Positions 2,133 through 29,058 are shown, numbered from the stretch's first letter. The stretch: DNA of 61,720 bases from Bacteroidota bacterium (GCA_042584405.1 JBHOSR010000003.1:1-61720), one strand, 5' to 3'. Notes: generated by a model not told the origin, from the sequence alone. Program-made: numbers and translations.

Positions 2133-2140
2133 TATATTTG
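2133..2140 (+). promoter_or_regulatory. Candidate Bacteroidota -7 promoter box (TATATTTG, matching TAnnTTTG) for the corrinoid operon.
   Basis: Motif lies 16 nt upstream of the ATG at 2156. Confidence 0.3.
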
Positions 2141-2155
2141 GATATAATCAATATT

Positions 2156-2821
2156 ATGGATACAATTCTCGAAAAACTATCAAATTGTGTTGAGAGGGGA
2201 AAAGTTGATAAAGATGCTTTATTCCCTCCTGACATGAAAGACTTGCCTGGATCTGATGAATTAACTCTTGCTGCTATTCAAAATAAAATTCCTCCTGAAG
2301 ATATTCTTAACCTAGCCCTAATACCGGGAATGGAACGTATAGGATTAAAATTCAAAGAAAATAAAGTTTTTGTTCCGGAAGTATTAATGGCTGCAAAAGC
2401 AATGTCAAAAGCAATGGAACATCTAAAGCCTTTTTTTCAAAAAGGAATTGCCAAACAAAAAGGAACTTTAGTAATAGGAACCGTAGCAGGCGATTTACAT
2501 GACATTGGAAAAAACCTTGTTTCTGTAATTGTTGAAGGAAGTGGCTGGGAAATTATTGATTTAGGTACAAGCGTAACAACCGAAAAGTTTATTGAATTTG
2601 CAAGTAAGTATCCTGATTGCTATGTTGGTTTATCAGCACTTCTTACTACTACTATGATAAACATGGAAGCTACAACCAAAGCTTTAAAAAACAAATTTCC
2701 GAATATTAAAATCTTGATTGGTGGAGCACCAGTTACTAAAGAGTTTTCGAAAAAAATAGGTGCTGATTTTTATGCACCAGATCCTCAAGGAGCATTAGAA
2801 TATTTAAATAAAATAACATAA
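2156..2821 (+). CDS. Methyltransferase cognate corrinoid protein (B12-binding cap plus Rossmann B12-binding domain).
   Basis: DxHxxG motif GDLHDIGKN (nt 2492-2509), then SALLTTT and LIGGAPVT motifs. I prefer the ATG at 2156 over the TTG at 2138. Confidence 0.85.
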   Translation: MDTILEKLSNCVERGKVDKDALFPPDMKDLPGSDELTLAAIQNKIPPEDILNLALIPGMERIGLKFKENKVFVPEVLMAAKAMSKAMEHLKPFFQKGIAKQKGTLVIGTVAGDLHDIGKNLVSVIVEGSGWEIIDLGTSVTTEKFIEFASKYPDCYVGLSALLTTTMINMEATTKALKNKFPNIKILIGGAPVTKEFSKKIGADFYAPDPQGALEYLNKIT

Positions 2822-3711
2822 TGATTGATTTATTCGAAAAAATCAAATCACAAAAAATTCTATTAGCTGATGGAGCTTGGGGAACCATGCTTTTTGAGAA
2901 AGGATTGCAGCAAGGAGAATGTCCTGAATTATGGAATATTACAAATAAAGAGAGGGTATTTGACATAGCAAAGCAATATGTTGCAGCAGGTTCTGATATA
3001 GTAGAAACAAATAGTTTTGGTGGTTCAGTTATAAAACTTGAGCATTATAATTTAGGATCAAGAACTGAAGAAATAAATATTGAAGCAGCGAACATATCAA
3101 GAGAAGCCGCAGGTAATGAGAAATTAGTTTTTGGATCAATGGGACCTTGTGGAAAAATACTAATTATGGGTGACGTAACTGAAGATCAAATTTATGATTC
3201 TTTTAGTCTCCAAGCGAAATCCCTTGTAAAAGGGGGTTCAGATGCACTTATTATTGAAACAATGACTGCTTTGGATGAAGCTTTAATTGCTATACGAGCT
3301 TGTAAAGAAAATACATCTGTTCCAATAATTTGTACTTTTACTTTTGATAAAACTATAAATAATGATTACAGAACAATGATGGGGATAAGCCCAGAAGAAA
3401 TGTGTAAAGCACTCATAAGTGCAGGTGTTGATGTGGTTGGATCTAACTGTGGAAATGGTTTCGATGGAATGATAGAAATTGCTAAAGAATTAAGAAAAAT
3501 AAGCTCCAAAATTCCTATTATGATTCAAGCCAATGCAGGCATGCCTGAGTTAGTAGAAGAAAAAGTTGTTTATCCGGAAAAACCAGATGAAATGGCAGAA
3601 AAAATACCAGCATTAATTAACCTAGGAGTTAGTATAATAGGGGGTTGTTGTGGAACAACGCCAGCTCATATCTCAAAATTTTCTCAAATCATAAATCAAT
3701 TTGCACATTGA
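2821..3711 (+). CDS. Homocysteine S-methyltransferase-domain protein (MetH N-terminal/BHMT-like Zn-dependent thiol methyltransferase).
   Basis: Zn-ligand pattern VGSNCG ... GGCCGTTPAHI. The ATG overlaps the upstream TAA (TAATG). Confidence 0.85.
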   Translation: MIDLFEKIKSQKILLADGAWGTMLFEKGLQQGECPELWNITNKERVFDIAKQYVAAGSDIVETNSFGGSVIKLEHYNLGSRTEEINIEAANISREAAGNEKLVFGSMGPCGKILIMGDVTEDQIYDSFSLQAKSLVKGGSDALIIETMTALDEALIAIRACKENTSVPIICTFTFDKTINNDYRTMMGISPEEMCKALISAGVDVVGSNCGNGFDGMIEIAKELRKISSKIPIMIQANAGMPELVEEKVVYPEKPDEMAEKIPALINLGVSIIGGCCGTTPAHISKFSQIINQFAH

Positions 3712-4391
3712 TCAATATAAAAGAATTCTCTATAAACCTTAACGAAATTAATATCAATCCAAAAGATATTAGTAAAATAATCGGATATAAGGAAGGCGAG
3801 ATTCCAGAAATGATTGACCAGGAGATTGAATCCGTACTGTCTGAAATTAATAAAAATTGTAGTTTAAAAGGTGGATATAGAATAATTGAAAATGTTCAGT
3901 TTGATAAAGAATCTACTATAGTTCAAAATATAACATTTCATACAAAAGGAGTAATTACTAATTTTTTAAAAGGTAGCGATTCGATCGCTATTTTGGTATG
4001 CACAGCGGGTAAAGAAATAAGTGATTGGACAAACAACTTATTTAAAGAAAATAATTCTCTTAAAGCTTATGTTGTTGATGTTGCTGCTTCTATTATGGTT
4101 GAAAAAGCTGCCGATGTTGTACAAAGTAGAATCGAAAAGCTTATAAAATCAAATCTCAAGAAAATTACAAATCGATATAGTCCTGGATATTGTGATTGGG
4201 AGTTAAAAGAACAATTTAAACTTTTCTCACTCTTACCAGATAATTTTTGTGGTATTCAATTAAATGAAGAAGCTCTTATGCTACCAACAAAATCGATTAG
4301 TGCAATAATAGGTATTGGTAACAAAGTTGAAAAAAAGGCATATCAATGTGATGTATGCAACAGGAAGGACTGTATTTATAAGCTTAAATAA
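3708..4391 (+). CDS. Stand-alone vitamin-B12-dependent methionine synthase activation (reactivation) domain-like protein.
   Basis: RYSPGYCDWELKEQFKLFSLLP ... GIQLNEEALMLPTKSISAIIGIG resembles split-MetH activation subunits. Proposed TTG start at 3708 overlaps the upstream TGA. There is no in-frame ATG near the N-terminus. Confidence 0.65.
   Translation: MINIKEFSINLNEININPKDISKIIGYKEGEIPEMIDQEIESVLSEINKNCSLKGGYRIIENVQFDKESTIVQNITFHTKGVITNFLKGSDSIAILVCTAGKEISDWTNNLFKENNSLKAYVVDVAASIMVEKAADVVQSRIEKLIKSNLKKITNRYSPGYCDWELKEQFKLFSLLPDNFCGIQLNEEALMLPTKSISAIIGIGNKVEKKAYQCDVCNRKDCIYKLK
3784..3809 (+). repeat. Direct repeat copy B, identical to nt 1-26.
   Basis: Exact 26-nt identity. Confidence 0.8.
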
Positions 4392-4418
4392 AGTTATACA
4401 TTTAATAATCTAAAAATT

Positions 4419-5852
4419 ATGAATCCTGCTAATATATCCGAAATTGTAAAACCTAACTTGTCTTTGCTCAGCGAAGAACAAATTAATAATGTGCATGAAT
4501 TTTCGATAAAAATTTTAGAAGAGACAGGAATTAAAGTTGAATCAAAATCTGCCCTCCAAATATTTGCTAAATCGAATGCTGTAAAAGTTAAAAATGATAT
4601 TGTTTTTATTCAGCGCGAAATTATTGAGCATTCAATAAAGTTTGCTCCTAAAACTGTTGATATTTATGATAAAAAAGGTAAGGTGTCTTTTAATTTAGGG
4701 AATAATAATGATACCTTTTTCGGTATTGGTGTTACAAATACCAATTATCAAGATATTGAAACAAATAAAATTCGGCCATTCACACGCAAACATCAACAAA
4801 ACTGCACCAAATTAGGCGATTTACTAAATAATTATGATACAGTTTCAACCATAGGAATTCCATCAGATGTTTCGGCAGATAAAATGGATTTGTACAATAC
4901 TGTCGACATGTATGCAAATACCACAAAACCATTAATTCTTTTAATCTCTGAAGGTGAAAACATTAATAAAGTATTTGATCTACTTTCAAACTTGCATGGT
5001 GATATTTCTAACAAGCCATTTATTATACCTTATTTTAATCCTATTACACCTTTAGTATTTAATGAAGCTACAAGTGATAAAATGATAGCTTCTATTAATA
5101 GTAATTTTCCAATTATTTTCTCTAACTATAGCATGTATGGTGCTACTTCTCCTATTACAGAAGGTGGTTCATTGGCTTTGCTAAATGCTGAATTGCTTGC
5201 AGGATTAGTTTTCAGTCAATTAATTAAAGAAGGTAGTCCTATTATTTTAGGTAGCTTGCCTGCTTCCTTTAATATGACATCCATGGGAAGTAATTACACT
5301 ACTTCTTCATATTTATTGAATTTGGCTTGTGCAGAAATGATGCTTTTCTATTCAATACCACATTGTGGAACATCGGGAAGTGGAAAAGCATGGGGCCCTG
5401 ATTTAATTGCAGCTGGAGAATATTGGATGAATCATATAACAAGCTGTATAGGAAAAGCTGGTTTAGTTCCATTTGTTGGTGGAAGTTTTGATTCCATGGC
5501 ATTTTCTCCTGCAAGTGCAGTATTTTCAGATTTTATAATTGGCGAAACTAAAAAGCTCTCCAAAGGCTTCATCTTAAATACTGAGACAGTAGATCTTGAA
5601 GAAATTAAATCAATTGGACATGGTGGTAATTATCTTACCTCAAATCAAACGCTTCAATCATTATCAAATTTTGGAGAAACGAATAAAATATGGCCATCGT
5701 TAAACATGCATTCATGGGAAGAATTAGGATATCCTGAAGCAAAAAAATATTTAATCGATCATTCCAAAGAATTATATAATCAAGCTGAATCATTAGTGAA
5801 GGAAAATATAGATGTAATAAAAAAAGGAGAAGAATTCATTAATAGGCTTTAA
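4419..5852 (+). CDS. Trimethylamine methyltransferase (MttB) superfamily protein, non-pyrrolysine type (substrate:corrinoid methyltransferase).
   Basis: N-terminal pattern LSEEQINNVHEFSIKILEETGIKVES...FAPK and the ~477 aa length are typical of the MttB family. The ORF is uninterrupted, with no in-frame TAG. Confidence 0.8.
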   Translation: MNPANISEIVKPNLSLLSEEQINNVHEFSIKILEETGIKVESKSALQIFAKSNAVKVKNDIVFIQREIIEHSIKFAPKTVDIYDKKGKVSFNLGNNNDTFFGIGVTNTNYQDIETNKIRPFTRKHQQNCTKLGDLLNNYDTVSTIGIPSDVSADKMDLYNTVDMYANTTKPLILLISEGENINKVFDLLSNLHGDISNKPFIIPYFNPITPLVFNEATSDKMIASINSNFPIIFSNYSMYGATSPITEGGSLALLNAELLAGLVFSQLIKEGSPIILGSLPASFNMTSMGSNYTTSSYLLNLACAEMMLFYSIPHCGTSGSGKAWGPDLIAAGEYWMNHITSCIGKAGLVPFVGGSFDSMAFSPASAVFSDFIIGETKKLSKGFILNTETVDLEEIKSIGHGGNYLTSNQTLQSLSNFGETNKIWPSLNMHSWEELGYPEAKKYLIDHSKELYNQAESLVKENIDVIKKGEEFINRL

Positions 5853-5868
5853 GAAGAAAATTCTCTTT

Positions 5869-7185
5869 ATGCAAAAAGCTAATCCCGGCGAACAGTCCAA
5901 GATAGGTTTTTGGACAAGCACATCACTTGTAGTAGGAAACATGACAGGTTCTGGAATTTTCCTTCTTCCTGCTGCTCTTGCATTTTATGGTGGAATTAGT
6001 CTCTTCGGTTGGCTTTTTACTACAATTGGTTCAATTTTTTTAGCCCTGGTTTTTGCTCGATTAAGTAAAATCATACCCAAAGCTGGTGGTCCGTATGCTT
6101 ATGCACGAGAAGGTTTTGGCGATTTTGCAGGATTTATTGTGGTATGGGGTTATTGGGTTTCCATTTGGTGTGGAAATGCAGCGATTTCTGTTGCTGGAGT
6201 TGGTTATTTGTCGGTTTTTATTCCTGTATTAAAAAATAATAATTTTCTATCGGGAGCATTGGCAATTCTTGCGATTTGGATTTTCACGTATATCAACTCA
6301 ATGAACATCAGAAAAGTTGGTAAAGTACAAATTGTTACAACTATTCTAAAAATAATTCCATTAGTTGCATTTGGCACAATTGGCTTTTTATATTTTAAAG
6401 TTGAGAGCTTTACACCATTTAATGTGAGTGAAAAATCAACTTTCGATGCTATAACAAGTTGTGCTGCCTTAACGTTATGGGCTTTTTTAGGCCTTGAGTC
6501 AGCTACTATACCATCAGATAAAGTTAAAAATTCCCAAAAAACAATTCCAAGAGCAACTATTACAGGAACATTAATCGCTGCTATAATTTATATTTCGGCT
6601 ACTATGGCCGTAATGGGAATTATTAGTCCTTTTGAATTACAAAAATCTTCTGCTCCATTTGCCGATGCAGCCAAGGTTGTTTGGGGAAACTGGGGATTAT
6701 ATATAGTAGCGATCGGAGCTGCTATTTCTTGTTTTGGAGCACTAAATGGTTGGATATTGATACAAGGCCAAATGCCTTATGCAGCAGCCAAGGATAAGTT
6801 ATTCCCTGAAAGATTTCAAAAAGTTTCCAAAAAAAATGTCCCTATATTCGGAATCATCTTTGCAAGTATTTTGGCTACTATACTGGTATCAATGAATTAT
6901 ACTAAAGGATTAGTTGGCATGTTTTCTTTTATGATTATGCTTGCAACATTAACTGTACTATTCCCTTATGTGTTATCATCATGTGCTGAAATAACGATTT
7001 ATTTTAAGAAAAAAATCAAAGTACCCAAAAAAACTTACATTTCAGTATTATTCATTTCTATTCCTGCCCTCCTCTATTCAATTTGGGCTGTAATTGGGTT
7101 GGGTTTTGAAATTATTTTATGGGGAGTTTTACTTTTATTATTTGGTATTCCGATTTACCTAATTTTAAACTTTAAAAGAAAATAA
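5869..7185 (+). CDS. APC-superfamily amino acid/amine permease (basic amino acid/polyamine antiporter-like).
   Basis: About 12 hydrophobic segments. N-terminal motif VVGNMTGSGIFLLPA ... GGPYAYAREGFG is typical of AdiC/PotE-like transporters. Confidence 0.8.
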   Translation: MQKANPGEQSKIGFWTSTSLVVGNMTGSGIFLLPAALAFYGGISLFGWLFTTIGSIFLALVFARLSKIIPKAGGPYAYAREGFGDFAGFIVVWGYWVSIWCGNAAISVAGVGYLSVFIPVLKNNNFLSGALAILAIWIFTYINSMNIRKVGKVQIVTTILKIIPLVAFGTIGFLYFKVESFTPFNVSEKSTFDAITSCAALTLWAFLGLESATIPSDKVKNSQKTIPRATITGTLIAAIIYISATMAVMGIISPFELQKSSAPFADAAKVVWGNWGLYIVAIGAAISCFGALNGWILIQGQMPYAAAKDKLFPERFQKVSKKNVPIFGIIFASILATILVSMNYTKGLVGMFSFMIMLATLTVLFPYVLSSCAEITIYFKKKIKVPKKTYISVLFISIPALLYSIWAVIGLGFEIILWGVLLLLFGIPIYLILNFKRK

Positions 7186-9495: not shown

Positions 9496-9581
9496 TTGTA
9501 TATAATTTTGTTTTAATTTAAATATATCTTATACAATAATAAGAATTCTATTTGATTTTGTAAAGCAGTAAAGGTTTAAAC

Positions 9582-9613
9582 AAAAAGACTCCTGGTTTCC
9601 CAGGAGTCTTTTT
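9582..9613. terminator. Rho-independent terminator, immediately downstream of the small minus-strand ORF at 9637-9801.
   Basis: AAAAA-AGACTCCTGG-tttc-CCAGGAGTCT-TTTTT. Confidence 0.75.
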
Positions 9614-9636
9614 ATTAATTAGGTAAAACAGTTATT

Positions 9637-9801
9637 TTATTTCTTTACATATTTAGCATTTATTTGCTCTAAGTACCGTTTTTTTGCTTTTACAGGGTCA
9701 GCACCAATTGGAATATAAATGGTTGTTTTAAAATCAACTTTAACACTCTGCAATTTATTTAAATCAGGTGATTGAAAGGTATTCGGTTTTTTTTCGTACA
9801 T
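9637..9801 (-). CDS. Candidate small protein, 54 aa (MYEKKPNTFQSPDLNKLQSVKVDFKTTIYIPIGADPVKAKKRYLEQINAKYVKK).
   Basis: Manual translation (below the ORF-track length cutoff). ATG start, and its own strong terminator 24 nt after the stop. No family recognised. Confidence 0.3.
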   Translation of the reverse strand: MYEKKPNTFQSPDLNKLQSVKVDFKTTIYIPIGADPVKAKKRYLEQINAKYVKK

Positions 9802-10404
9802 ACAATTTTTCCCTTCTATTAAATTAATTATTCGTTCTTAACAAAGAACTTTTCAACTATTAAGCTTTATGCATCATTATTTATAATCCGTTCCGAAATC
9901 AAAGGTCCTAAAGAGAAGTAAGCCTGTCTCTGTCTATATTAAGAGATTTTTTATTTACACTCTTTATAGTCGATTTTATAGCTTCTGATATAACATTTAA
10001 CTACCGGAATAATTCAGAACTGCAAAGGTAGTCTAAAATACTGACAATCACTAATTTTATGATGCAATAATTTATCATTCAACTAAATCGTACTGTGTAC
10101 TTAATATACCTCTTTTTTAAAATTGTGTATGAACCTTTCAATAAATTATCTTTTTTGCATAATTCATTTATTTAACCATTTTATATATCAACAATTATTG
10201 TGATTGTGCAATCTGCTGAATATCTGAGCTATAGTTATAAGCATTTCAAAATTTCATTAAAATACCAAAGAATAATATTTCCAATTTAAGTAGCATTTTT
10301 TTATAAAATTGAGTATTTTGCCAAACTATTTAAAAAACTTATTGTCTTATAAGTAATTTTAAAGTTATTTAGGTTAAACATAAAAACTAACGGAGAAACG
10401 AGAG

Positions 10405-11232
10405 ATGGCATGGTATAGCGAAACTACAACCGTTAAGAAAAAATCAAAAAAAGAAATTTGGGTAAAATGTAAAAAATGCCAGTCGTATGTTTACAAATCA
10501 GAATGGGAGAAAAATCTGAATGTTTGCCCAAACTGTAATTTCCACGGTGCTATTACTTCATACGAACGTATTAATCAGTTATTCGATAAAAAAACTTTCG
10601 AAGAACTTTTCAATAATATTAGTCCAACAGATTCACTTAAGTTTGTTGATTTGAAAGGAAGCTATAAAGATAAGTACGAAGCCAATATCAAAAAAACAGG
10701 AATTAACGAAGCAGTTGTTACCGGACATGGTAAAATTAATGGGATTCCGGCCGTAATAGCAGTTATGGATTTTAGATTTTTAGGTGGAAGTCTTGGAAGT
10801 GCAACAGGAGAGAAAATTCTTCAAGCTGCCAACTATGCCTACGATCATAACTTACCGTATATCGTTATATCAGCATCCGGAGGTGCTCGTATGCAAGAAG
10901 GAGCTTTATCCTTAATGCAAATGGCAAAAACATGCGCTGGAGTTGCTCGATTAAACAGAAAGAATATTCCATATATTTCAATTCTAACTAATCCAACAAC
11001 AGGTGGTGTTTCAGCAAGCTACGCTATGATGGGCGACATTAATGTTTCAGAACCCGGAGCTGTAATCGGATTTGCAGGACGAAGAGTAATAGAACAAACT
11101 ATTGGAGAAAAGCTTCCTGATGATTTTCAAACTGCTGAATATTTGCGCGAACATGGATTCGTAGATTCCATAGTTAATCGAAAAGATTTAAAAGATTATT
11201 TAAGCAATGTTCTAAGCTATTATAATCGATAA
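10405..11232 (+). CDS. accD: Acetyl-CoA carboxylase carboxyltransferase subunit beta.
   Basis: N-terminal Zn ribbon CKKC...CPNC. GGSLG and GGARMQEG motifs. Confidence 0.9.
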   Translation: MAWYSETTTVKKKSKKEIWVKCKKCQSYVYKSEWEKNLNVCPNCNFHGAITSYERINQLFDKKTFEELFNNISPTDSLKFVDLKGSYKDKYEANIKKTGINEAVVTGHGKINGIPAVIAVMDFRFLGGSLGSATGEKILQAANYAYDHNLPYIVISASGGARMQEGALSLMQMAKTCAGVARLNRKNIPYISILTNPTTGGVSASYAMMGDINVSEPGAVIGFAGRRVIEQTIGEKLPDDFQTAEYLREHGFVDSIVNRKDLKDYLSNVLSYYNR

Positions 11233-11269
11233 TCTGTAAAAATCCCTCAATTATTTCAAATACCTTATT

Positions 11270-12145
11270 ATGGGACAAAAAACTGATAATATTGCAACTG
11301 AAGAACCAAAGGTGAAAAAAATGAATAAAAAAGCTAAAAAAGAATTAACACCTTGGGAAATTGTTCAAATAAGCAGACATCCTAAAAGACCAATTTTACA
11401 AGACTATATTTCACATATCGTTAACAACTTTGTTGAACTTCATGGCGACAGATGTTTTTCTGATGATATGGCTATGATAGGTGGTTTTGCTGAAATTGGA
11501 GGTCAAAAAATAATGCTTATTGGTCATAATAAAGGTAAAAAGACACATGAAAATATTGCCCGTAACTTCGGAATGGCAAAACCCGATGGTTATAGAAAAG
11601 CTTTGCGCTTAATGAAATTAGCCCAACGTTTTAATGTTCCAATTGTTACCATAATTGATACTCCAGGAGCCTTTCCTGGCCTTGAAGCTGAAGAACGCGG
11701 TCAAGCAGAAGCAATTGCAAAGAACCTTACCGAAATGGCTTCAATTGAAGTACCTATCGTTTGTGTTGTTATTGGTGAAGGAGGTAGTGGCGGTGCTTTA
11801 GGAATTGGTGTTGGCGACAGAATATTAATGTTGTCCAATGCAATATATTCTGTTATCTCACCAGAAGGATGTGCTTCTATTTTATGGCGCGATGCTGCAT
11901 ATGCTCCTGATGCTGCAAAAGCTCTTAATCTTACTGCAAAAGAATTGTTAAAGCATGGTGTGATTGATGAAATTATTGATGAACCAGGTGAAGGAGCTCA
12001 TACCGATGTAAAAGCAATTGCCGAATCAATAAAAAAAGCTGTACTTAAAAATATTAAACCATTACAAAAATTATCTGTTGACGAATTAATTCAAAGCAGA
12101 TTTGAAAAATTCTCAGCAATGGGAAAATTCTCTGTTAATAAATAA
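11270..12145 (+). CDS. accA: Acetyl-CoA carboxylase carboxyltransferase subunit alpha.
   Basis: IIDTPGAFPG, AEERGQAEAIA and GEGGSGGALG motifs. Confidence 0.9.
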   Translation: MGQKTDNIATEEPKVKKMNKKAKKELTPWEIVQISRHPKRPILQDYISHIVNNFVELHGDRCFSDDMAMIGGFAEIGGQKIMLIGHNKGKKTHENIARNFGMAKPDGYRKALRLMKLAQRFNVPIVTIIDTPGAFPGLEAEERGQAEAIAKNLTEMASIEVPIVCVVIGEGGSGGALGIGVGDRILMLSNAIYSVISPEGCASILWRDAAYAPDAAKALNLTAKELLKHGVIDEIIDEPGEGAHTDVKAIAESIKKAVLKNIKPLQKLSVDELIQSRFEKFSAMGKFSVNK

Positions 12146-12158
12146 TTGACTTTTAGTT

Positions 12159-14111
12159 ATGAAAAAAAATACACTAAGAATTACCGATACAACCTTAAGA
12201 GATGGACATCAGTCGCTTTGGGCAACAAGAATGCGCACTAAAGATATTATTGATATTATTGATACTATCGATAAGGTAGGATATTATTCATTGGAAGTTT
12301 GGGGCGGTGCCACCTTTGATGTTTGCCTTCGTTTTCTGCGTGAAAATCCCTGGGATAGATTAAGACAGATAAAAGCAAAAGCTAAAAAGACTCCTCTTCA
12401 AATGTTGTTAAGAGGTCAGAATATTGTAGGATATAAAAATTATCCTGACGATTTAGTGGATCGTTTTGTTGAAACAGCACATGAAAATGGTGTTGATATT
12501 TTCAGAATTTTTGATGCATTGAATGATTCTCGAAATTTAGAAGCTGCAATAAAAGCAGTAAAGAAACATGGTGCTCATGCACAAGGTTCACTTTCCTACA
12601 CCATTAGCCCTGTTCATACCATTGAAAAATTTGTAAGCGACGCAAAAGAACAGGTTCAAATGGGAATCGATTCATTATGTATTAAGGATATGGCAGGATT
12701 ACTTTCACCTACAATGTCAAAAAATTTAATGTCGGCTCTAAAGAAAGAATTAGACATTCCTATTCAGATACATTGCCACGCTACTAGCGGAATGGCTGAA
12801 ACAGCCTATTTAGAAGGCGTAAGAGCCGGTGCTGGTGCTGTTGACTGCGCTATTTCTTCTATGGCAGGATTCTCATCACAACCACCCGTAGAAACTATTA
12901 ACGCAATATTTGCAGAAACCGAATTTGATGTAAACTTAGATTTAGATGCTTTACGAAAAGTAAATAAATATTTTGCTGATTTAACTCCTAAACGCTCAAA
13001 AGGAAGAGGTTATGAACCAATTATTGATTCTGAAATTTTAGTTCACCAGATTCCTGGTGGTATGATTTCAAATTTTCGTTCACAACTTGAACAGCAAGGA
13101 GCAAGTGAAAAATTAAGTGAAGCTCTCGAGGAAGTTACAAAAGTGCGAAAAGATTTAGGATATCCTCCATTGGTAACTCCCACAAGCCAAATTGTAGGAA
13201 CACAAGCAGTAATGAACGTATTAACTGGTGCACGATATAAGGTAGTGCCTCAAGAAGTTAAAAATTATGTAAAAGGAATGTATGGTCGTCCACCTGCTCC
13301 TATTGAACCAAAATTTATTAAGCAAATATTAGGTAAAGAAAAACCTATTGATCACCGTCCTGCTGACGATCTTAAACCAATTCTACCTAATGCAACTAAG
13401 AATGTTGCTGATCCTAAATTAATCGAAAACGAAGAGGACATTTTATCCTACTGTTTATTCCCTGAAGTTTCGATGGAATATTTCAAATGGAGAGCACATG
13501 CGGAAGATAAAAGACCAAAAACTCCTGCTGATATTGAAACGGAAGAATTAGTTAAAGTTCCAGAAGCAGAAAACGTACAGGTTAAAGCAAGCGTTTCAGG
13601 TACCGCGGATCCAATGTTACATCGTGATGATTATGATGGAATGAACGCTATGCTTGAAAAAGCTTCAAGAATGCAAATTAATGAATTGATTATTAGAAAA
13701 GGCGATTTTAATCTTTCAATGCGATCAGGAAATGGTGCTGCAAAAACGCATGTAATTTCTGAAGCGATTGTTGGATCTGCTCATCCGGAAGTTCATGATG
13801 AAGTTAGAGAAGCTGCAGAACCTACAGGCAAAACAGAAGAGAAACCTATCGAAAAAGATACCCAGGAATATAAAGACACCATAGATGCTGTAATGGCTGG
13901 AACTTTTTATCGTTGTCCTTCTTCGGATAAACCACCTTTTGTTGAAGAAGGAACGGTAGTTAATGAAGGCGATCCGATTTGTATTTTAGAAGCGATGAAA
14001 CTTTTCAACGAAATTGAAGCTCCTTTCAAATGTAAAATCCTTAAGATTTTGGTTGAGGATACTAACACGATTACAAAAGGACAATCTCTAATGGCTGTAG
14101 AGAAATTATAA
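12159..14111 (+). CDS. Oxaloacetate decarboxylase alpha / pyruvate carboxylase subunit B-like carboxyltransferase (5S-like), fused to a complete AccB-type biotin carboxyl carrier protein.
   Basis: ITDTTLRDGHQSLWATRMR, CIKDMAG (K176) and HCHATSG motifs. The C-terminal ~155 aa resemble AccB (INELIIRKGDFNLSMRSG ... AGTFYRCPSSDKPPFVEEG ... EAMKLFNEIEAP). Biotinyl-Lys K614 is encoded at nt 13998-14000. Confidence 0.85.
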   Translation: MKKNTLRITDTTLRDGHQSLWATRMRTKDIIDIIDTIDKVGYYSLEVWGGATFDVCLRFLRENPWDRLRQIKAKAKKTPLQMLLRGQNIVGYKNYPDDLVDRFVETAHENGVDIFRIFDALNDSRNLEAAIKAVKKHGAHAQGSLSYTISPVHTIEKFVSDAKEQVQMGIDSLCIKDMAGLLSPTMSKNLMSALKKELDIPIQIHCHATSGMAETAYLEGVRAGAGAVDCAISSMAGFSSQPPVETINAIFAETEFDVNLDLDALRKVNKYFADLTPKRSKGRGYEPIIDSEILVHQIPGGMISNFRSQLEQQGASEKLSEALEEVTKVRKDLGYPPLVTPTSQIVGTQAVMNVLTGARYKVVPQEVKNYVKGMYGRPPAPIEPKFIKQILGKEKPIDHRPADDLKPILPNATKNVADPKLIENEEDILSYCLFPEVSMEYFKWRAHAEDKRPKTPADIETEELVKVPEAENVQVKASVSGTADPMLHRDDYDGMNAMLEKASRMQINELIIRKGDFNLSMRSGNGAAKTHVISEAIVGSAHPEVHDEVREAAEPTGKTEEKPIEKDTQEYKDTIDAVMAGTFYRCPSSDKPPFVEEGTVVNEGDPICILEAMKLFNEIEAPFKCKILKILVEDTNTITKGQSLMAVEKL

Positions 14112-14133: not shown

Positions 14134-14162
14134 AAAAGCCATCTTGATTAGATGGCTTTTTT
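14134..14162. terminator. Bidirectional terminator between convergent operons.
   Basis: AAAA-GCCATCT-tgatt-AGATGGC-TTTTTT. Confidence 0.7.
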
Positions 14163-24957: not shown

Positions 24958-25839
24958 TTATATACTCCCAACTAATTCTTTAATTTTATGCCAGCTATTA
25001 ACAATCATTAATGTTAACTCTCCTGAACCATATTCAACAATCGTTTGTCCATTAGTCATAGCTTTTGTAAAATTTTCATCGTAAGGTAAACTGGAAATAT
25101 GTGCAATTGATTCATCATTCAGAAATTGAATAATATCCTGTGTTACTTTCGGATTTATATCATATTTATTAATAATACATCCAGCTTTCAAATTGAATTT
25201 TTTAACCAATTCATGTACTCTTTTTAAATCGTGCAATCCCGATAAAGATGGTTCTGTAACTAAAACAACAAAATCAGCTCCTGAAAGTGAGGAGACAACA
25301 GGGCAACCTATTCCAGGAGAACCATCAACAATGATATAGTTCATTTTATTTTCTTTGGCCAATTGTTTAGCCTCATTTTTAACTTTAGCAACTAATTTAC
25401 CAGAGTTTTCGGCTCCTATTCCCAGTTTTGCATGAACAAGTGTATTTCCGACTTTGGTTTTAGAAATATACCAGTCTCCAACATTTTGATTGAACATATT
25501 AATAGCTTCAACAGGACATACCCGTGCACAATATCCACAACCTTCACAATTCAAAGTTTTAATTGTATATAGATCATTTATTACAGAAATTGCGTCAAAT
25601 CGGCAAATATCAGCACACATCCCACAATTAGTACATTTATCAGAATCAATATTAGCAATTACACCACTGAAAAAATCTTCTGAATTTATTACCGTTGGTT
25701 TCATTAATAAATGCATATCAGCCGCATCAACATCACAGTCTGCAACAATAGCATCGTTACCAGATAAAACTGCAAATGATGCTGTTACAGATGTTTTGCC
25801 TGTTCCTCCCTTACCGGAAATAATTACAATCTCCTTCAT
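24958..25839 (-). CDS. MinD/ParA-superfamily P-loop ATPase with an inserted 2x[4Fe-4S] ferredoxin domain.
   Basis: GKGGTGKTS P-loop. CTNCGMCADIC and CEGCGYCARVCP motifs. Confidence 0.8.
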   Translation of the reverse strand: MKEIVIISGKGGTGKTSVTASFAVLSGNDAIVADCDVDAADMHLLMKPTVINSEDFFSGVIANIDSDKCTNCGMCADICRFDAISVINDLYTIKTLNCEGCGYCARVCPVEAINMFNQNVGDWYISKTKVGNTLVHAKLGIGAENSGKLVAKVKNEAKQLAKENKMNYIIVDGSPGIGCPVVSSLSGADFVVLVTEPSLSGLHDLKRVHELVKKFNLKAGCIINKYDINPKVTQDIIQFLNDESIAHISSLPYDENFTKAMTNGQTIVEYGSGELTLMIVNSWHKIKELVGSI

Positions 25840-25846
25840 CTCGGTA

Positions 25847-26701
25847 CTAATTATTTAAATCTAAAATGTAATTCTTAACATTTTGAAGTTCTTCTTTAAA
25901 CTCAGGTATTTCAGAATATATCAATTTCCCTTTTGAATAAAGCTCTGCTACTTTTCTGTTATTAGGTATTTTTGCCAGGATTGGAATATTATTACTCACA
26001 CAGTAATCAACAACATCATTATTCCCAATACCATATCGATTAATTACTACTCCAAAATCCTTATCCAATTTTTTCATAGTTTCAACTGCAAGTTTCAAAT
26101 CATGCAGACCAAAAGGAGTTGGTTCCGTGACAAGAATTACAAAATCTACTTCTTTTGTTGCTTCAATAACAGGACATGAAGTTCCAGGTGGTGCATCAAA
26201 TATTTTTACTATATGCTGATTAAAAGTTTTATCAATATAATCATTGGTTTGAGCTATCAATGGTACGGCTTGTTCTTGCCCAATATCCAAACGACTTTCA
26301 ATAAAAGAAATATTTCCTTTTGTGTATTGATTTAATGTACCCATTCTTTGTTTAATCATAGGTAAAGATGATACAGGACATAACTCAGAACAAGCAAAAC
26401 AGCTATGGCATAATTCCGGAAAAACCATTATTTGTGGACCTAATTGTATAACAGCATGGAAATTGCAAACTTTCTGACATTCGCCACATAAAGTACAAGT
26501 ATCTTCCTTCCACTCAGGAATCATTTTATATTTTATTTCTTCTTGAATTAATTCCCCCTTAATAAATAATCCGGAGTTAGGTTCTTCAACATCCAGGTCT
26601 GTTAAAACTACTTTTTCAGTTTCTGAAAAAAGGGCGGCTAAATTCGTTGACAAGGTTGTCTTGCCTGTTCCGCCCTTTCCACTAGCGATAGTAATCTTCA
26701 T
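25847..26701 (-). CDS. MinD/ParA-superfamily P-loop ATPase with an inserted 2x[4Fe-4S] ferredoxin domain (paralog).
   Basis: GKGGTGKTT P-loop. CTLCGECQKVC and CHSCFACSELCP motifs. Confidence 0.8.
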   Translation of the reverse strand: MKITIASGKGGTGKTTLSTNLAALFSETEKVVLTDLDVEEPNSGLFIKGELIQEEIKYKMIPEWKEDTCTLCGECQKVCNFHAVIQLGPQIMVFPELCHSCFACSELCPVSSLPMIKQRMGTLNQYTKGNISFIESRLDIGQEQAVPLIAQTNDYIDKTFNQHIVKIFDAPPGTSCPVIEATKEVDFVILVTEPTPFGLHDLKLAVETMKKLDKDFGVVINRYGIGNNDVVDYCVSNNIPILAKIPNNRKVAELYSKGKLIYSEIPEFKEELQNVKNYILDLNN

Positions 26702-26716
26702 TTGTAAACTAATAAC

Positions 26717-27112
26717 TTATCCTAAACTATTATTATCAAGAAATAATTGGATTGTTTTTTCCAATGTCCTTCTTGCCAAACAAACGCAATCTGTTTTTGT
26801 CAAGGGAACTCCTCCCAAATGTTCTATAATATCACCTTCAGTTATTACTTTTGCAAAAGATAATGTTTTGTTTTTGATCATTTCCATAAGTGCTGAACCT
26901 GCAGAAAAAGCTCCTGCGCATCCTATAGCTTCAAATTTTGCTTCTGTTATAATTTCAGAATCAATTTTTAAATAAATTTTCATTGTATCACCACAATGTC
27001 CAGTATACGACGAAGAAACACTTGGATTTTCAATGCTGCCAACATTTAATTTTTTTTTATAGTATTCAATTGCCTTATCTGAATAACCGGATTTTTTCAA
27101 TAATTCATTCAT
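26717..27112 (-). CDS. NifU/IscU N-terminal-like Fe-S scaffold protein.
   Basis: Three conserved Cys contexts: GHCGD, IGCAGA and DCVCLA. Confidence 0.7.
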   Translation of the reverse strand: MNELLKKSGYSDKAIEYYKKKLNVGSIENPSVSSSYTGHCGDTMKIYLKIDSEIITEAKFEAIGCAGAFSAGSALMEMIKNKTLSFAKVITEGDIIEHLGGVPLTKTDCVCLARRTLEKTIQLFLDNNSLG

Positions 27113-27175
27113 TTTATTTGAGTTTAATTATTGATTTATTCAAACATAATTAACAGCCACTCATCAAAACAATTT

Positions 27176-27514
27176 TTAATGATCACATAAATTCTGTCCT
27201 GTTTGAAGTTGATTGGTTAAATATTGCTCAACTAATTCAGAAGGAGAACCATCTTGAACACCCATATGGACTTCAATATTGTTCATTGCAAATAAATCCT
27301 GAGCTTTTTGCCCCATTCCTCCTGCAATAATTACATGAACTCCATGATCAGCCAAAAACTTTGGATATACTCCTGGTTGATGTACTGGTGGAGTTATGAA
27401 TTCTTCCTTTACAACTTTATGGTCTTCCACATCGACAATTGCAAATTTTTCACAATGTCCAAAATGTGCTGTTAATTGATTTCCTAATGTAGGTATCGCA
27501 AACTTCATTTTCAT
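27176..27514 (-). CDS. NifB/NifX-family small protein (second copy).
   Basis: HFGHCEKFAIVDV ... IIAGGMGQKA pattern. Confidence 0.7.
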   Translation of the reverse strand: MKMKFAIPTLGNQLTAHFGHCEKFAIVDVEDHKVVKEEFITPPVHQPGVYPKFLADHGVHVIIAGGMGQKAQDLFAMNNIEVHMGVQDGSPSELVEQYLTNQLQTGQNLCDH

Positions 27515-27541
27515 CTTTTCATAATTTTATTAATAATTTAT

Positions 27542-27763
27542 TTATTTCTTTAGTAATTCTTCTCTAATTAGAGTATTTCCGCAATTGGGGCACTTAAGAG
27601 TTGTACACTTTATGCCTTGTTGATGTGGAACTTTTTCACCACATTTTGCACAAATACAATATCCACCGGGGCCAAAGGCTCCACCTTTATTTTTACCTTT
27701 TCCTCCACCACGACCAAGTCCTCTTCCATCACCTTGATTATGTTTATTATCTGAATTTTTCAT
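27542..27763 (-). CDS. Small Gly/Arg/Lys-rich protein with a GGYC motif and a Cys-rich zinc-ribbon-like C-terminus.
   Basis: GRGLGRGGGKGKNKGG...GGYCICAKCG...CTTLKCPNCG. Confidence 0.5.
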   Translation of the reverse strand: MKNSDNKHNQGDGRGLGRGGGKGKNKGGAFGPGGYCICAKCGEKVPHQQGIKCTTLKCPNCGNTLIREELLKK

Positions 27764-27876
27764 GTTTTTTCATTTTTAGGATTTCTAAGAAAAGCCATTA
27801 GCATTAAACCCATATGGACCACATAAGTTTTAAAAACTAAAGCTTTAAGCTAACGGCTTTTCAGACAAATAACAAC

Positions 27877-28182
27877 CTAATGTAATTTTTCAAGTTCTTT
27901 TTCAAGAAATGATAATTGTTGTTTTAAAATTTCAATTTCATTTTCTATTACAGATTTTTGATCAGTAGCACTGATTTCTTGATTTTCAGAATGAATTTGA
28001 TTTCTTCCAAAACCATGCTGGCCTTTCCTTCTAACTTGACCACCTCTAAATCCTTTTCCTAAACCAAAACCAAATTTCGAATTGTTGTTGAATCCCGGAT
28101 TATCATTTCCTGCGCAATACCCCATGCGCCTTCCTGTCATTGGGCCTAATCCCCCAGGCCCTGTTTTATCTCCTCTTGGCAT
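27877..28182 (-). CDS. DUF5320-like small protein (Gly-rich N-terminus with a GYC motif, C-terminal coiled coil).
   Basis: MPRGDKTGPGGLGPMTGRRMGYCAG... then the heptad-like ENEIEILKQQLSFLEKELEKL. Confidence 0.55.
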   Translation of the reverse strand: MPRGDKTGPGGLGPMTGRRMGYCAGNDNPGFNNNSKFGFGLGKGFRGGQVRRKGQHGFGRNQIHSENQEISATDQKSVIENEIEILKQQLSFLEKELEKLH

Positions 28183-28205
28183 AACAACCTCCTTTTTTTA
28201 AATGA

Positions 28206-29054
28206 TTAATGTTTCGTTATTTTTACAATTTTAGTAGGTTCTAAATTTTTATTTCTATCATTTACTTTTATAATTAATTGATCTGCCAAATTTTTAAAAG
28301 CATCACCAATAACAGTACTTTCCATAACAGTTGGCATCCCTGAATCACCACCTTCTCTTATACTTTGTACTAAGGGGATTTGACCTAAAAGTGGCACATT
28401 ATACTCCTTAGATAACTTCTTACAGCCATCTTTCCCAAATATGAAGTATTTATTATCAGGTAATTCTTCAGGTGTAAACCAGGACATATTCTCAATTAAT
28501 CCAATTACAGGAACTTTAATATGCTCTCCCTGAAACATGCTAATTCCTTTAACAGCATCAGCTAAAGCAACATCCTGTGGAGTACTAACTATAACAGCGC
28601 CTGTTACTGAGAGTGTTTGGACTAAGGTTAGATGAATATCGCTTGTACCCGGCGGCAGGTCAAAAAACAAATAATCTAATTCACCCCACTCTGTATCACC
28701 AATAAGTTGTTTTAAGGCTTTCGATGCCATTGGCCCCCGCCATACTGTTGCATCTCCAGCATCAATAAACATACCTATTGAAAGTAACTTAACTCCATAT
28801 TTCTGAATTGGTATAATTCTGTTTTTAAGCCCAATTATTTTAAATTCAGGCCTTTCATTTTCTATATTAAACATTTTTGGTATTGATGGCCCAAATATGT
28901 CTGCATCAATTAATCCAACTTTTTGCCCCTTATTTGCCAGGGCAACTGCCAGGTTTGTAGCTATAGTTGATTTCCCAACACCTCCTTTCCCTGAAGCTAT
29001 GACTACAATATTTTTTATTCCAGTCTGCTCAATTGTATCTTTCGTATTTTCCAT
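28206..29054 (-). CDS. mrp: Mrp/NBP35 (ApbC) family Fe-S cluster carrier ATPase.
   Basis: SGKGGVGKST deviant Walker A. DLPPGTSD. ENMSWF. Confidence 0.85.
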   Translation of the reverse strand: MENTKDTIEQTGIKNIVVIASGKGGVGKSTIATNLAVALANKGQKVGLIDADIFGPSIPKMFNIENERPEFKIIGLKNRIIPIQKYGVKLLSIGMFIDAGDATVWRGPMASKALKQLIGDTEWGELDYLFFDLPPGTSDIHLTLVQTLSVTGAVIVSTPQDVALADAVKGISMFQGEHIKVPVIGLIENMSWFTPEELPDNKYFIFGKDGCKKLSKEYNVPLLGQIPLVQSIREGGDSGMPTVMESTVIGDAFKNLADQLIIKVNDRNKNLEPTKIVKITKH

Positions 29055-29058
29055 AATC

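What the first reader, a model, noticed from the sequence alone, without database searches (positions are those of the whole stretch)
10405..14111. accD-accA-(5S-like carboxyltransferase::AccB) operon without a biotin carboxylase: possible ATP-independent malonyl-CoA:pyruvate transcarboxylase
Seen in sequence: accD, accA and a 650-aa ORF are separated by only 37 and 13 nt. The third ORF joins an OadA/PycB-type oxo-acid carboxyltransferase to what looks like a full-length AccB. The carboxyltransferase part carries TTLRDGHQS, the carbamyl-Lys context CIKDMAG, and HCHATSG. The AccB part has the N-terminal AccB-like segment, a charged linker, and the EAMK biotinyl domain. No accC-like ATP-grasp gene is in the operon or anywhere in the window, and no oadB/oadG membrane subunits are present.

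Established knowledge: Propionibacterium transcarboxylase works with three parts. These are a CoA-ester carboxyltransferase (12S, homologous to the AccD/AccA fold), a pyruvate/oxaloacetate carboxyltransferase (5S, homologous to OadA/PycB), and a biotin carrier (1.3S). It needs no ATP and no biotin carboxylase.

Inference: the three ORFs here supply exactly those three functions, but with an acetyl/malonyl-CoA-type carboxyltransferase. The predicted reaction is oxaloacetate + acetyl-CoA <-> pyruvate + malonyl-CoA. That would be an ATP-saving route to malonyl-CoA for an anaerobe. The covalent fusion of the ACC-type BCCP to the 5S-like domain is the most suggestive detail.
Basis: partly seen in the sequence, partly recalled or inferred. 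Interest (0 to 1): 0.7.

Follow-up and report, generated by a model that had tools for sequence, protein, structure and literature searches.

The report
Possible ATP-free malonyl-CoA enzyme operon
Three tightly packed genes encode both halves of the acetyl-CoA carboxylase carboxyltransferase plus a pyruvate/oxaloacetate carboxyltransferase fused to a biotin carrier; this set could make malonyl-CoA from oxaloacetate without ATP, as a known enzyme of Entamoeba and Giardia does, but I could not settle whether an ATP-using biotin carboxylase encoded elsewhere also serves it.

Summary
accD (10405-11232), accA (11270-12145) and a 650-aa ORF (12159-14111) are separated by 37 and 13 nt. The ORF joins a PycB/OadA/5S-type carboxyltransferase to a whole AccB-like module. 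No biotin carboxylase (BC) is encoded in the window.

The gene order is conserved in 68 of 73 evaluable species-level genomes, mostly uncultured Bacteroidales. In Kiritimatiellia and Lentisphaerae, accD and accA are fused into one gene next to the same partner. No BC lies within 10 kb in any of these loci.

The proposed reaction, oxaloacetate + acetyl-CoA <-> pyruvate + malonyl-CoA, is already known. A single-chain protein of anaerobic protists has the same modules in the same order. I found no paper on a bacterial split-gene form.

- The same fusion in a Firmicutes sister clade sits directly upstream of accC.
- AccD keeps Trp-3 and the zinc ribbon, which contact BC in E. coli.
- Absence of BC from the genome could not be tested.

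Verdict: BC-independent transcarboxylase about 0.5; BC-dependent dual acetyl-CoA/pyruvate carboxylase sharing one carrier about 0.4. It is a new variant of a known kind, of moderate interest.

The parts
10405..11232 (+). accD, the acetyl-CoA carboxylase carboxyltransferase beta subunit (275 aa). It has an N-terminal MAW motif and a C-x2-C...C-x2-C zinc ribbon.
   Evidence: TIGR00515 scores 382.7 bits, above the 317.45 cut-off, and PF17848 also matches. It is 47% identical to E. coli AccD from residue 1. Trp-3 is invariant in 63 clade members.
11270..12145 (+). accA, the carboxyltransferase alpha subunit (291 aa). It lacks the first roughly 32 residues (helix alpha1) of E. coli AccA.
   Evidence: NF004344 scores 447 bits against a cut-off of 357. 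The match starts at model position 35. It is 52% identical to E. coli AccA, with residues 14-285 aligned to 46-317.
12159..14111 (+). ORF3 (650 aa): a pyruvate/oxaloacetate carboxyltransferase fused to an AccB-like biotin carboxyl carrier.
   Evidence: Family matches are. PDB sequence matches are 5ks8_C at 475 bits, 2nx9_A at 461 and 1rqb_A at 431. The AF2 model has mean pLDDT 77.7. Foldseek gives TM-scores (normalised to the target) of 0.93 to OadA and 0.89 to the 5S subunit.
12174..13583 (+). Carboxyltransferase domain of ORF3: a TIM barrel (HMGL-like, residues 6-269) plus the PYC_OADA domain (residues 293-475). It carries the metal ligands D15, H205 and H207 and the carbamyl-Lys K176.
   Evidence: Domains are. 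The motifs are invariant in alignment A1.
13614..13730 (+). AccB N-terminal-like alpha/beta/beta motif of ORF3, residues about 486-524.
   Evidence: TIGR00531 model positions 7-45 align here, as do E. coli AccB residues 2-34. AF2 predicts helix 489-504 and strands 509-514 and 517-522. Conservation within the clade is 0.63-0.78, against 0.24 for the linker.
13731..13874 (+). Charged, variable and disordered linker, residues 525-572.
   Evidence: pLDDT is below 50. Column conservation is 0.24.
13875..14108 (+). Biotinyl domain with the ACC-type thumb, residues 573-650. The biotinyl-Lys K614 is encoded at 13998-14000.
   Evidence: PF00364 matches residues 574-646. EAMK starts at nt 13989. The thumb aligns to that of E. 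coli AccB. The match to 4hr7_B is 55.9 bits, against 28 bits to the transcarboxylase 1.3S subunit.
14135..14162 (.). Hairpin AAAGCCATCT-tgatt-AGATGGCTTT followed by a T-run. It lies between ORF3 and the convergent TolC-like gene and is a likely bidirectional terminator closing the operon.
   Evidence: Read directly from the sequence. The consensus scan did not list it.

Best explanation
The three genes encode one biotin enzyme with two different carboxyltransferase sites served by a single carrier.

Proposed mechanism:
1. The ORF3 carboxyltransferase domain takes CO2 from oxaloacetate onto the biotin of its own C-terminal carrier. This carrier is of the ACC type and bears the 'thumb'.
2. The roughly 48-residue flexible linker lets the carboxybiotin swing to the AccD/AccA site.
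3. There acetyl-CoA is carboxylated.

Net reaction: oxaloacetate + acetyl-CoA <-> pyruvate + malonyl-CoA, with no ATP and no biotin carboxylase. In a fermenting anaerobe that makes oxaloacetate with PEP carboxykinase, this would save one ATP per malonyl-CoA.

Shown here: the gene content, the intact catalytic motifs, operon conservation and the lack of any BC linkage. Inferred: that the carrier reaches both sites, the direction of flux, and BC independence.
For: 1. All parts needed are present and look intact, and both carboxyltransferases and the biotinyl-Lys motif are invariant across relatives.
2. The genes are packed with 37- and 13-nt gaps and closed by a hairpin.
3. accD-accA-ORF3 is collinear in 68 of 73 evaluable GTDB species loci. 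These span Bacteroidales, Victivallales and Verrucomicrobiota.
4. No AccC-like gene occurs in 1.25 Mb around these operons, nor next to the Kiritimatiellia and Lentisphaerae versions.
5. In those lineages accD and accA are fused into one chain, directly followed by the PycB::BCCP gene. The Kiritimatiellia partner is 63% identical to ORF3 over its carboxyltransferase domain.
6. This is one fusion step from the protist single-chain ACCT-PycB-BCCP protein, which has the same module order. [quoted passage not shown]
7. AccA has lost the N-terminal helix that contacts the BC C-terminus in E. coli (PMC11160672).
8. The usual accB-accC linkage is replaced here by a link between the carrier and accDA.
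Against: 1. The same PycB::full-AccB architecture in a Firmicutes sister clade is followed immediately by accC in 16 of 16 evaluable loci. The family therefore can work with a BC, and may have done so ancestrally.
2. AccD keeps Trp-3 in 63 of 63 clade members, and in the 10 fused proteins of PVC bacteria (Planctomycetota-Verrucomicrobiota-Chlamydiota group) whose sequences I read. It also keeps the Zn ribbon. In E. coli these elements bind BC and BCCP.
3. The AccB-like N-terminal motif is under purifying selection in this clade.
4. Whether the genomes lack BC is untested. Most Bacteroidota encode one (PMC3199775).
5. The ORF3 carboxyltransferase domain matches PycB, OadA and 5S about equally well, so similarity does not favour a transcarboxylase.
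6. There are no expression or biochemical data.
Confidence: 0.5

Rival explanations
1. BC-dependent dual carboxylase. A biotin carboxylase encoded elsewhere (an orphan accC or pycA) charges the ORF3 carrier with ATP and bicarbonate. The carboxybiotin is then delivered either to pyruvate in cis, giving pyruvate carboxylase activity, or to acetyl-CoA on AccD/AccA, giving acetyl-CoA carboxylase activity. ORF3 would be the cell's AccB and PycB in one chain, and transcarboxylation would be only a side reaction.
For: - The sister-clade fusion is immediately followed by accC, which is 54-58% identical to E. coli AccC. PGAP names that protein 'acetyl-CoA carboxylase biotin carboxyl carrier protein', and its TIGR00531 score is 161.7 bits, above the cut-off.
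- AccD Trp-3 and the Zn ribbon, which contact BC and BCCP in E. coli, are invariant here.
- The AccB-like N-terminal motif is conserved.
- The best PDB match is the beta subunit of a two-subunit pyruvate carboxylase.
Against: - No BC lies in or near the operon in more than 80 genomes of at least four phyla. This contrasts with the near-universal accB-accC linkage.
- The AccA helix that touches BC is lost.
- The AccB-like N-terminal motif is absent or degenerate in the lineages with fused accDA.
- The collinear protist enzyme works in organisms that lack conventional malonyl-CoA synthesis.
Confidence: 0.38
2. Chance co-location. ORF3 would be an ordinary PycB (or the soluble alpha subunit of an oxaloacetate decarboxylase) that merely sits next to the housekeeping accDA genes. 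The two would not share a carrier.
For: NCBI's domain-level model 'pyruvate carboxylase subunit B' (NF006761) matches at 790 bits. Public annotations call relatives PycB or OadA.
Against: - The gene order is kept in 68 of 73 loci across phyla and is tightened by gene fusion in PVC bacteria.
- The carrier is of the ACC type, with thumb and N-terminal motif. Ordinary OadA/PycB proteins match only the biotinyl part of TIGR00531, at 37-60 bits.
- The oadA, PycB and 5S equivalog models all fall below their cut-offs.
- No OAD_beta family was found in the window or in four related loci.
Confidence: 0.06
3. Reverse physiological direction. The complex would run malonyl-CoA + pyruvate -> acetyl-CoA + oxaloacetate, for example in malonate or malonyl-CoA catabolism or in anaplerosis, rather than supplying malonyl-CoA for lipid synthesis.
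For: The reaction should be close to equilibrium; this rests on established thermodynamics of the two decarboxylations and was not computed here. The operon is not linked to fab genes in the window.
Against: No malonate-uptake or malonate-activation genes lie nearby. AccD and AccA pass the equivalog models of housekeeping ACC. The protist homologue is assigned to malonyl-CoA supply.
Confidence: 0.05

Closest known systems
Protist ACCT-PycB-BCCP transcarboxylase of Giardia, Entamoeba, Mastigamoeba, retortamonads and Monocercomonoides (Jordan et al. 2003, PMID 12766347; Barbosa-Cabrera et al. 2012, PMID 22453500; cited in PMC8136499, PMC7985675 and PMC12308965)
   Same: It has the same three modules (an acetyl-CoA-type carboxyltransferase, a PycB-type carboxyltransferase and a BCCP) in the same order as the genes accD-accA-ORF3. 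It has no BC domain, and the proposed reaction is the same: oxaloacetate + acetyl-CoA -> pyruvate + malonyl-CoA.
   Different: It is one polypeptide in eukaryotes; here there are three genes, or two in Kiritimatiellia and Lentisphaerae. The sequence relationship was not tested: no protist sequence could be retrieved, and a concatenated query found no triple fusion in the protein collection. I do not know whether the protist enzyme has the AccB-like N-terminal motif or the AccD Trp-3.
Propionibacterium methylmalonyl-CoA:pyruvate transcarboxylase (12S, 5S and 1.3S subunits; EC 2.1.3.1)
   Same: It uses two carboxyltransferases plus a carrier, with no BC and no ATP. The ORF3 carboxyltransferase domain is a 5S homologue: 431 bits to 1rqb and a TM-score normalised to the target of 0.89.
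   Different: The CoA-ester carboxyltransferase here is the two-subunit AccD/AccA type, not a single-chain 12S. The carrier is fused to the 5S-like subunit and is of the ACC type with a thumb; it matches 4hr7_B at 55.9 bits against 28 bits for the 1.3S subunit. The 5S equivalog model is not met, at 526.8 bits against a cut-off of 827.
Two-subunit pyruvate carboxylase (PycA plus PycB; Methylobacillus flagellatus, PDB 5ks8)
   Same: It is the best sequence and fold match to ORF3 (475 bits; Foldseek E = 2e-55), and it also has a carboxyltransferase followed by a C-terminal BCCP.
   Different: No BC gene is adjacent in this clade. The PycB equivalog models are not met: 622.6 bits against 734, and 512.5 against 1182. 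The region after the carboxyltransferase domain is a whole AccB-like module.
PycB::AccB-accC loci of Syntrophomonadaceae/Firmicutes (P0122 clade, uncharacterised)
   Same: The fusion architecture is the same, including a canonical AccB N-terminal motif and the thumb. These proteins are 41-47% identical to ORF3.
   Different: They are followed directly by accC and have no accDA within 10 kb. The sequence after the PYC_OADA domain (ORF3 residues 441-460) and the N-terminal motif differ from the accDA-linked clade; the clade consensus sequences agree at only 20% of positions in the N-terminal motif.
E. coli-type heteromeric acetyl-CoA carboxylase (AccA, AccB, AccC, AccD)
   Same: AccD and AccA pass equivalog cut-offs and are 47% and 52% identical to the E. 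coli proteins. The carrier module has the AccB layout.
   Different: There is no accC in the operon. AccB is fused to a second carboxyltransferase. AccA lacks helix alpha1.

Membership tests
Biotin-dependent transcarboxylase (BC-independent) | Two distinct carboxyltransferase components, one for a CoA ester and one for a 2-oxo acid | tested here: met
   AccD/AccA pass equivalog models. The ORF3 carboxyltransferase domain has intact metal and carbamyl-Lys motifs.
Biotin-dependent transcarboxylase (BC-independent) | A biotin carrier with the biotinyl-Lys in an (A/E)-M-K motif | tested here: met
   EAMK occupies residues 611-614 and is invariant in 68 relatives. PF00364 matches at 53.4 bits.
Biotin-dependent transcarboxylase (BC-independent) | No biotin carboxylase partner | tested here: inconclusive
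   No BC was found in the 61.7-kb window, nor within 10 kb in 80 related loci, nor in the PVC loci. The rest of the genome could not be searched. AccD keeps the E. coli BC-contact residue Trp-3.
Biotin-dependent transcarboxylase (BC-independent) | ATP-independent carboxyl transfer between the two substrates | not testable with these tools
   This needs an enzyme assay.
Heteromeric acetyl-CoA carboxylase (AccABCD) | AccA and AccD carboxyltransferase subunits | tested here: met
   TIGR00515 scores 382.7 against 317.45. NF004344 scores 447 against 357. TIGR00513 scores 414.8 against 319.3.
Heteromeric acetyl-CoA carboxylase (AccABCD) | AccB-type BCCP with N-terminal motif, linker and thumb-bearing biotinyl domain | tested here: inconclusive
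   The layout is present. However, TIGR00531 scores 106.9 bits, below the 115.2 cut-off, and the module is fused to another enzyme.
Heteromeric acetyl-CoA carboxylase (AccABCD) | AccC biotin carboxylase | tested here: inconclusive
   It is absent from the window and from all related loci. The whole genome was not testable.
Two-subunit pyruvate carboxylase, subunit B | Passes a PycB equivalog model | tested here: not met
   NF010644 scores 622.6 against 734, and NF010645 scores 512.5 against 1182. Only the domain-level model NF006761 passes, at 790.5 against 402.
Two-subunit pyruvate carboxylase, subunit B | A PycA (BC) partner gene | tested here: inconclusive
   It is not adjacent in this clade but is adjacent in the sister clade. 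The genome was not searched.
Na+-pumping oxaloacetate decarboxylase, alpha subunit (OadA) | Passes the oadA equivalog and is encoded with oadB and oadG | tested here: not met
   TIGR01108 scores 707.1 bits against a cut-off of 756.5. No OAD_beta family occurs in the window ORFs or in the gene tables of L001, L165, L167 and L168.
Transcarboxylase 5S subunit (EC 2.1.3.1) | Passes the 5S equivalog model, with separate 12S and 1.3S subunits | tested here: not met
   NF008984 scores 526.8 against 827. The CoA-ester carboxyltransferase is AccD/AccA, and the carrier is fused rather than separate.

The most novel reading that the evidence does not exclude
A BC-free, ATP-independent route to malonyl-CoA (oxaloacetate:acetyl-CoA transcarboxylation) may be widespread in uncultured anaerobic Bacteroidales and in Lentisphaerota, Kiritimatiellota and Verrucomicrobiota. 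There it would replace conventional acetyl-CoA carboxylase. This operon, and especially the two-gene accD::accA plus pycB::BCCP form, would be the bacterial ancestor of the single-chain transcarboxylase that anaerobic protists acquired.
Probability: 0.4. Interest if true: 0.75.

Novelty: new variant of a known kind. Interest (0 to 1): 0.55.

Why it matters
Acetyl-CoA carboxylase is treated as the universal, ATP-consuming committed step of bacterial fatty-acid synthesis and as an antibiotic target.

If this operon works without a biotin carboxylase:
- Whole lineages of anaerobes would make malonyl-CoA at no ATP cost, by coupling it to the PEP carboxykinase / oxaloacetate node.
- Energy budgets and carbon-isotope expectations for their lipids would change.
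- Metabolic engineers would gain a compact three-gene module, with AccD/AccA specificity, for ATP-free malonyl-CoA supply.
- The protist transcarboxylase would have a concrete bacterial origin.

If instead a BC serves it, the finding is still of some interest. One carrier protein would be shared between pyruvate carboxylase and acetyl-CoA carboxylase, which I did not find described.

Tried and rejected
1. Public sequencing runs holding the operon: none were listed. Exact look-up of ORF3 found it is not on record. I therefore have no source genome and no expression data.

2. Hunt for a protist-like or bacterial triple fusion. I queried with AccD + AccA + ORF3 residues 1-300, joined so that fused proteins would outrank single ones. 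No hit was longer than 617 aa. The search found AccD::AccA fusions instead.

3. P0127 (1115 aa) from the representative search looked like a triple fusion. It is a tandem duplication of the PYC carboxyltransferase with no ACC part.

4. Plan to detect a BC on the closed 4,597,882-bp chromosome by matching the 'longest contig' column of protein hits. This needs a BC query from a close relative. None lay in 1.25 Mb of related loci. A tblastn of E. coli AccC against plasmids listed no Bacteroidota BC among the rows shown. The BCs next to ordinary PycB genes in the metagenome loci are 483-499-aa proteins, which I judged from length alone to be PycA-type from other organisms. The third protein search was therefore left unused rather than spent on a long shot.

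5. Rfam search of the 909-nt region upstream of accD. All matches were below threshold and centred on a terminator hairpin at 9580-9612.

6. Sigma-70 promoter scan. There was no enrichment: 20 sites against 21.8 expected. Bacteroidota promoters are not covered by that tool.

7. Fold and sequence similarity of the carboxyltransferase domain cannot separate PycB, OadA and 5S. I rejected it as a discriminator.

8. I first read the AccB-like N-terminal motif as a BC-docking element and therefore as evidence for a BC. The E. coli holoenzyme preprint instead proposes that this motif oligomerises to tether BCCP (PMC11160672). I now treat it as uninformative on the BC question.

Full report
**What is in the sequence**

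The window has about 32% G+C. Several of its proteins carry type IX secretion sorting domains, so the source is a Bacteroidota genome.

Three ORFs on the + strand match the finding:
- accD, 10405-11232, 275 aa.
- accA, 11270-12145, 291 aa.
- ORF3, 12159-14111, 650 aa.

The gaps are 37 and 13 nt. AccD and AccA pass NCBI's equivalog cut-offs: TIGR00515 scores 382.7 against 317.45, and NF004344 scores 447 against 357.

ORF3 contains an HMGL-like TIM barrel (residues 6-269), the PYC_OADA domain (293-475) and a biotinyl domain (574-646). Its catalytic motifs are invariant in 68 relatives. They are TTLRDGHQS at 11-19, CIKDMAG at 174-180, HCHATSG at 205-211 and EAMK at 611-614.

The C-terminal 155 residues align to AccB from end to end:
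- TIGR00531 model positions 7-156 match at 106.9 bits, against a cut-off of 115.2.
- E. coli AccB residues 2-156 align at 31% identity, including the ACC-specific thumb.
- AF2 gives helix 489-504 plus strands 509-514 and 517-522, then a disordered linker at 523-569, then a confident biotinyl domain.

A hairpin at 14135-14162 separates ORF3 from a convergent TolC-like gene. The flanking genes are unrelated: an S46 peptidase and an RND efflux pump. No ATP-grasp or biotin carboxylase (BC) gene and no OAD_beta gene occurs anywhere in the window.

**Is the arrangement real biology?**

More than 120 protein clusters are at least 70% identical to ORF3. Nearly all come from uncultured Bacteroidales and are annotated 'pyruvate carboxylase subunit B' or 'oxaloacetate decarboxylase alpha'.

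A scan of one genome per GTDB species found 419 species with a relative. I fetched the best 80 loci. Of the 73 with enough upstream DNA, 68 have accD-accA-ORF3 in the same order. These include Victivallales and Verrucomicrobiota at 57-63% identity. Five loci carry the fusion gene alone: Latescibacter, a Planctomycetia MAG, a Chitinivibrionia MAG and two unclassified MAGs.

One relative sits on a closed 4.6-Mb MAG chromosome, OY762280.1. A tblastn with E. coli AccC found no BC in the 1.25 Mb of these loci.

**The fusion is not restricted to this operon**

A search of 1.84 billion representative proteins, followed by NCBIfam scans, separates two classes of PycB/OadA-like proteins:
- Class I carries a whole AccB module. 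TIGR00531 aligns over about model positions 1-155, at 98-162 bits.
- Class II, the ordinary OadA/PycB proteins, matches only the biotinyl part, at 37-60 bits.

Class I includes P0122 from a Syntrophomonadaceae MAG. PGAP even names it 'acetyl-CoA carboxylase biotin carboxyl carrier protein'.

I fetched 80 metagenome loci around relatives of P0122. In the P0122 clade (L084-L101, 41-47% identical to ORF3), every locus with downstream DNA (16 of 16) has a full-length accC. It starts about 20-130 nt after the fusion and is 54-58% identical to E. coli AccC. No accD or accA lies within 10 kb.

So the same architecture is linked to BC in one clade and to the ACC carboxyltransferase in another, and never to both.

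**A fusion series in other phyla**

I built a query from AccD + AccA + the first 300 residues of ORF3, so that fused proteins would outrank single ones. It found no triple fusion. It did find AccD::AccA single-chain proteins of 556-603 aa, 51-60% identical, from Lentisphaerae and Kiritimatiellae.

In four of five contexts examined, the next gene, 12-48 nt downstream, is a PycB::BCCP gene or its frameshift-broken remains (the exception is). The intact partners are 563, 633 and 617 aa.

The Kiritimatiellia partner is 63% identical to ORF3 over residues 1-460. It keeps the thumb-bearing biotinyl domain but lacks the AccB-like N-terminal motif. In two other lineages that motif is degenerate.

The series runs as follows:
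1. [PycB::AccB]-accC in Firmicutes.
2. accD-accA-[PycB::AccB] in Bacteroidales and Victivallales.
3. [accD::accA]-[PycB::BCCP] in Kiritimatiellia and Lentisphaerae.
4. A single ACCT-PycB-BCCP chain in protists.

**What is already known**

[quoted passage not shown] Mastigamoeba has an orthologue, and neither organism has conventional malonyl-CoA synthesis (PMC8136499).

The Giardia fusion enzyme, described by Jordan et al. 2003, has orthologues in retortamonads (PMC7985675). It is labelled 'ACCT/PycB' in Monocercomonoides (PMC12308965).

I could not read Jordan et al. 2003. Five full-text searches found no paper describing a bacterial split-gene version, and a sixth, exact-phrase search returned nothing at all. 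The classic Propionibacterium transcarboxylase differs in two ways: it uses a 12S (PccB-like) carboxyltransferase and a separate 1.3S carrier.

**Evidence bearing on a hidden BC**

A cryo-EM preprint on the E. coli holoenzyme (PMC11160672) reports three relevant contacts:
- AccD residues 2-23 and the zinc domain contact BC and BCCP, with Trp-3 sitting in a pocket on BC.
- The AccA N-terminal helices contact the BC C-terminus.
- The first 30 residues of BCCP form an alpha/beta/beta motif that probably oligomerises to tether the carrier.

Compared with that structure, the picture here is mixed:
- The window AccD begins MAWY. Trp-3 is invariant in all 63 AccD N-termini I could read in the clade, and in the 10 fused PVC proteins whose sequences I read. 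The zinc-ribbon cysteines are kept. This argues for a BC partner, unless the peptide now binds something else.
- AccA lacks the first roughly 32 residues, which include helix alpha1. This argues against an E. coli-like BC contact.
- The AccB-like N-terminal motif is conserved within the clade, at 0.63-0.78 against 0.24 for the linker. It has diverged from the canonical form kept in the BC-linked clade. Given the tethering model, I treat this as uninformative.
- The carboxyltransferase domain matches PycB (475 bits), OadA (461) and 5S (431) about equally. It superposes on OadA and 5S with TM-scores normalised to the target of 0.93 and 0.89. Similarity therefore cannot assign the physiological role.

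**Conclusion**

The operon certainly encodes two carboxyltransferases that share, or at least sit beside, one ACC-type carrier. Both half-reactions are reversible (established enzymology of biotin carboxyltransferases). Oxaloacetate:acetyl-CoA transcarboxylation is therefore chemically available to this complex whether or not a BC exists.

I put about 0.5 on a BC-independent transcarboxylase as the physiological function. I put about 0.4 on a BC-dependent dual acetyl-CoA/pyruvate carboxylase whose BC is encoded elsewhere. The rest goes to chance co-location or a reversed direction.

The decisive computation is a BC search of OY762280.1 and the other operon-bearing genomes.

The finding is a new variant of a known kind: a bacterial, multi-gene form of the protist malonyl-CoA:pyruvate transcarboxylase, or else an undescribed shared-carrier carboxylase. 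Interest is moderate, at 0.55.

Noticed in passing
window 2138-7185: A cluster of five genes: a corrinoid-binding protein (B12-binding, 2138-2821), a homocysteine S-methyltransferase-like protein (2821-3711), a Met_synt_B12 activation-like protein (3645-4391, overlapping the previous ORF by 67 nt), an MttB-family methyltransferase (4419-5852) and an amino-acid permease (5869-7185). It looks like a non-pyrrolysine MttB-type demethylation system for a quaternary amine such as glycine betaine.
   Followed up: no
window 9496-10404: The intergenic region upstream of accD is unusually long, at 909 nt. It holds a 54-aa ORF on the minus strand (9637-9801), followed by a strong hairpin at 9580-9612. 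Rfam gave only sub-threshold matches on that hairpin.
   Followed up: partly
window 13458-13538 (ORF3 residues 434-460): The segment just after the PYC_OADA domain reads FPEV..YFKWRA.PEDKRPKTPAD.E. It is highly conserved in the accDA-linked and solitary clades, including Kiritimatiellia, but differs in the BC-linked Firmicutes clade. It could be a clade-specific docking element. Its partner is unknown.
   Followed up: partly
L165 10001-13393; L167 3129-6749; L168 6354-9927: In Kiritimatiellia and Lentisphaerae, accD and accA are fused into one gene of 556-565 aa, directly followed by the PycB::BCCP gene. In L167 and L168 the next gene encodes a CinA-domain protein.
   Followed up: yes
P0127 (representative protein, 1115 aa): This protein has two tandem copies of the pyruvate/oxaloacetate carboxyltransferase (HMGL-like + PYC_OADA, twice). 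No biotinyl domain was detected.
   Followed up: partly
L136 8411-12089; L148 6671-11335: These metagenome loci look like classic transcarboxylase or decarboxylase operons. A carboxyltransferase only 26-32% identical to AccD (and, in L136, to AccA), probably of the single-chain 12S/PccB type, lies next to a PycB-like gene and a separate small BCCP gene.
   Followed up: no
window 24958-29932: Three MinD/ParA/Mrp-like P-loop ATPase genes, two of them with 4Fe-4S ferredoxin inserts, lie next to a DUF134 / sigma-70 region 4-like gene.
   Followed up: no
window 43946-47086: A 1046-aa protein, presumably secreted, combines a papain-family C1 peptidase with PKD, fn3 and GEVED domains and a type IX secretion sorting tail.
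   Followed up: no
L169 6040-9377: On a long-read metagenome contig from the same ENA sample as the closed MAG, the gene after the fused accDA is split into several short ORFs matching HMGL-like and PYC_OADA. These are probably frameshift errors in the assembly rather than a pseudogene.
   Followed up: no
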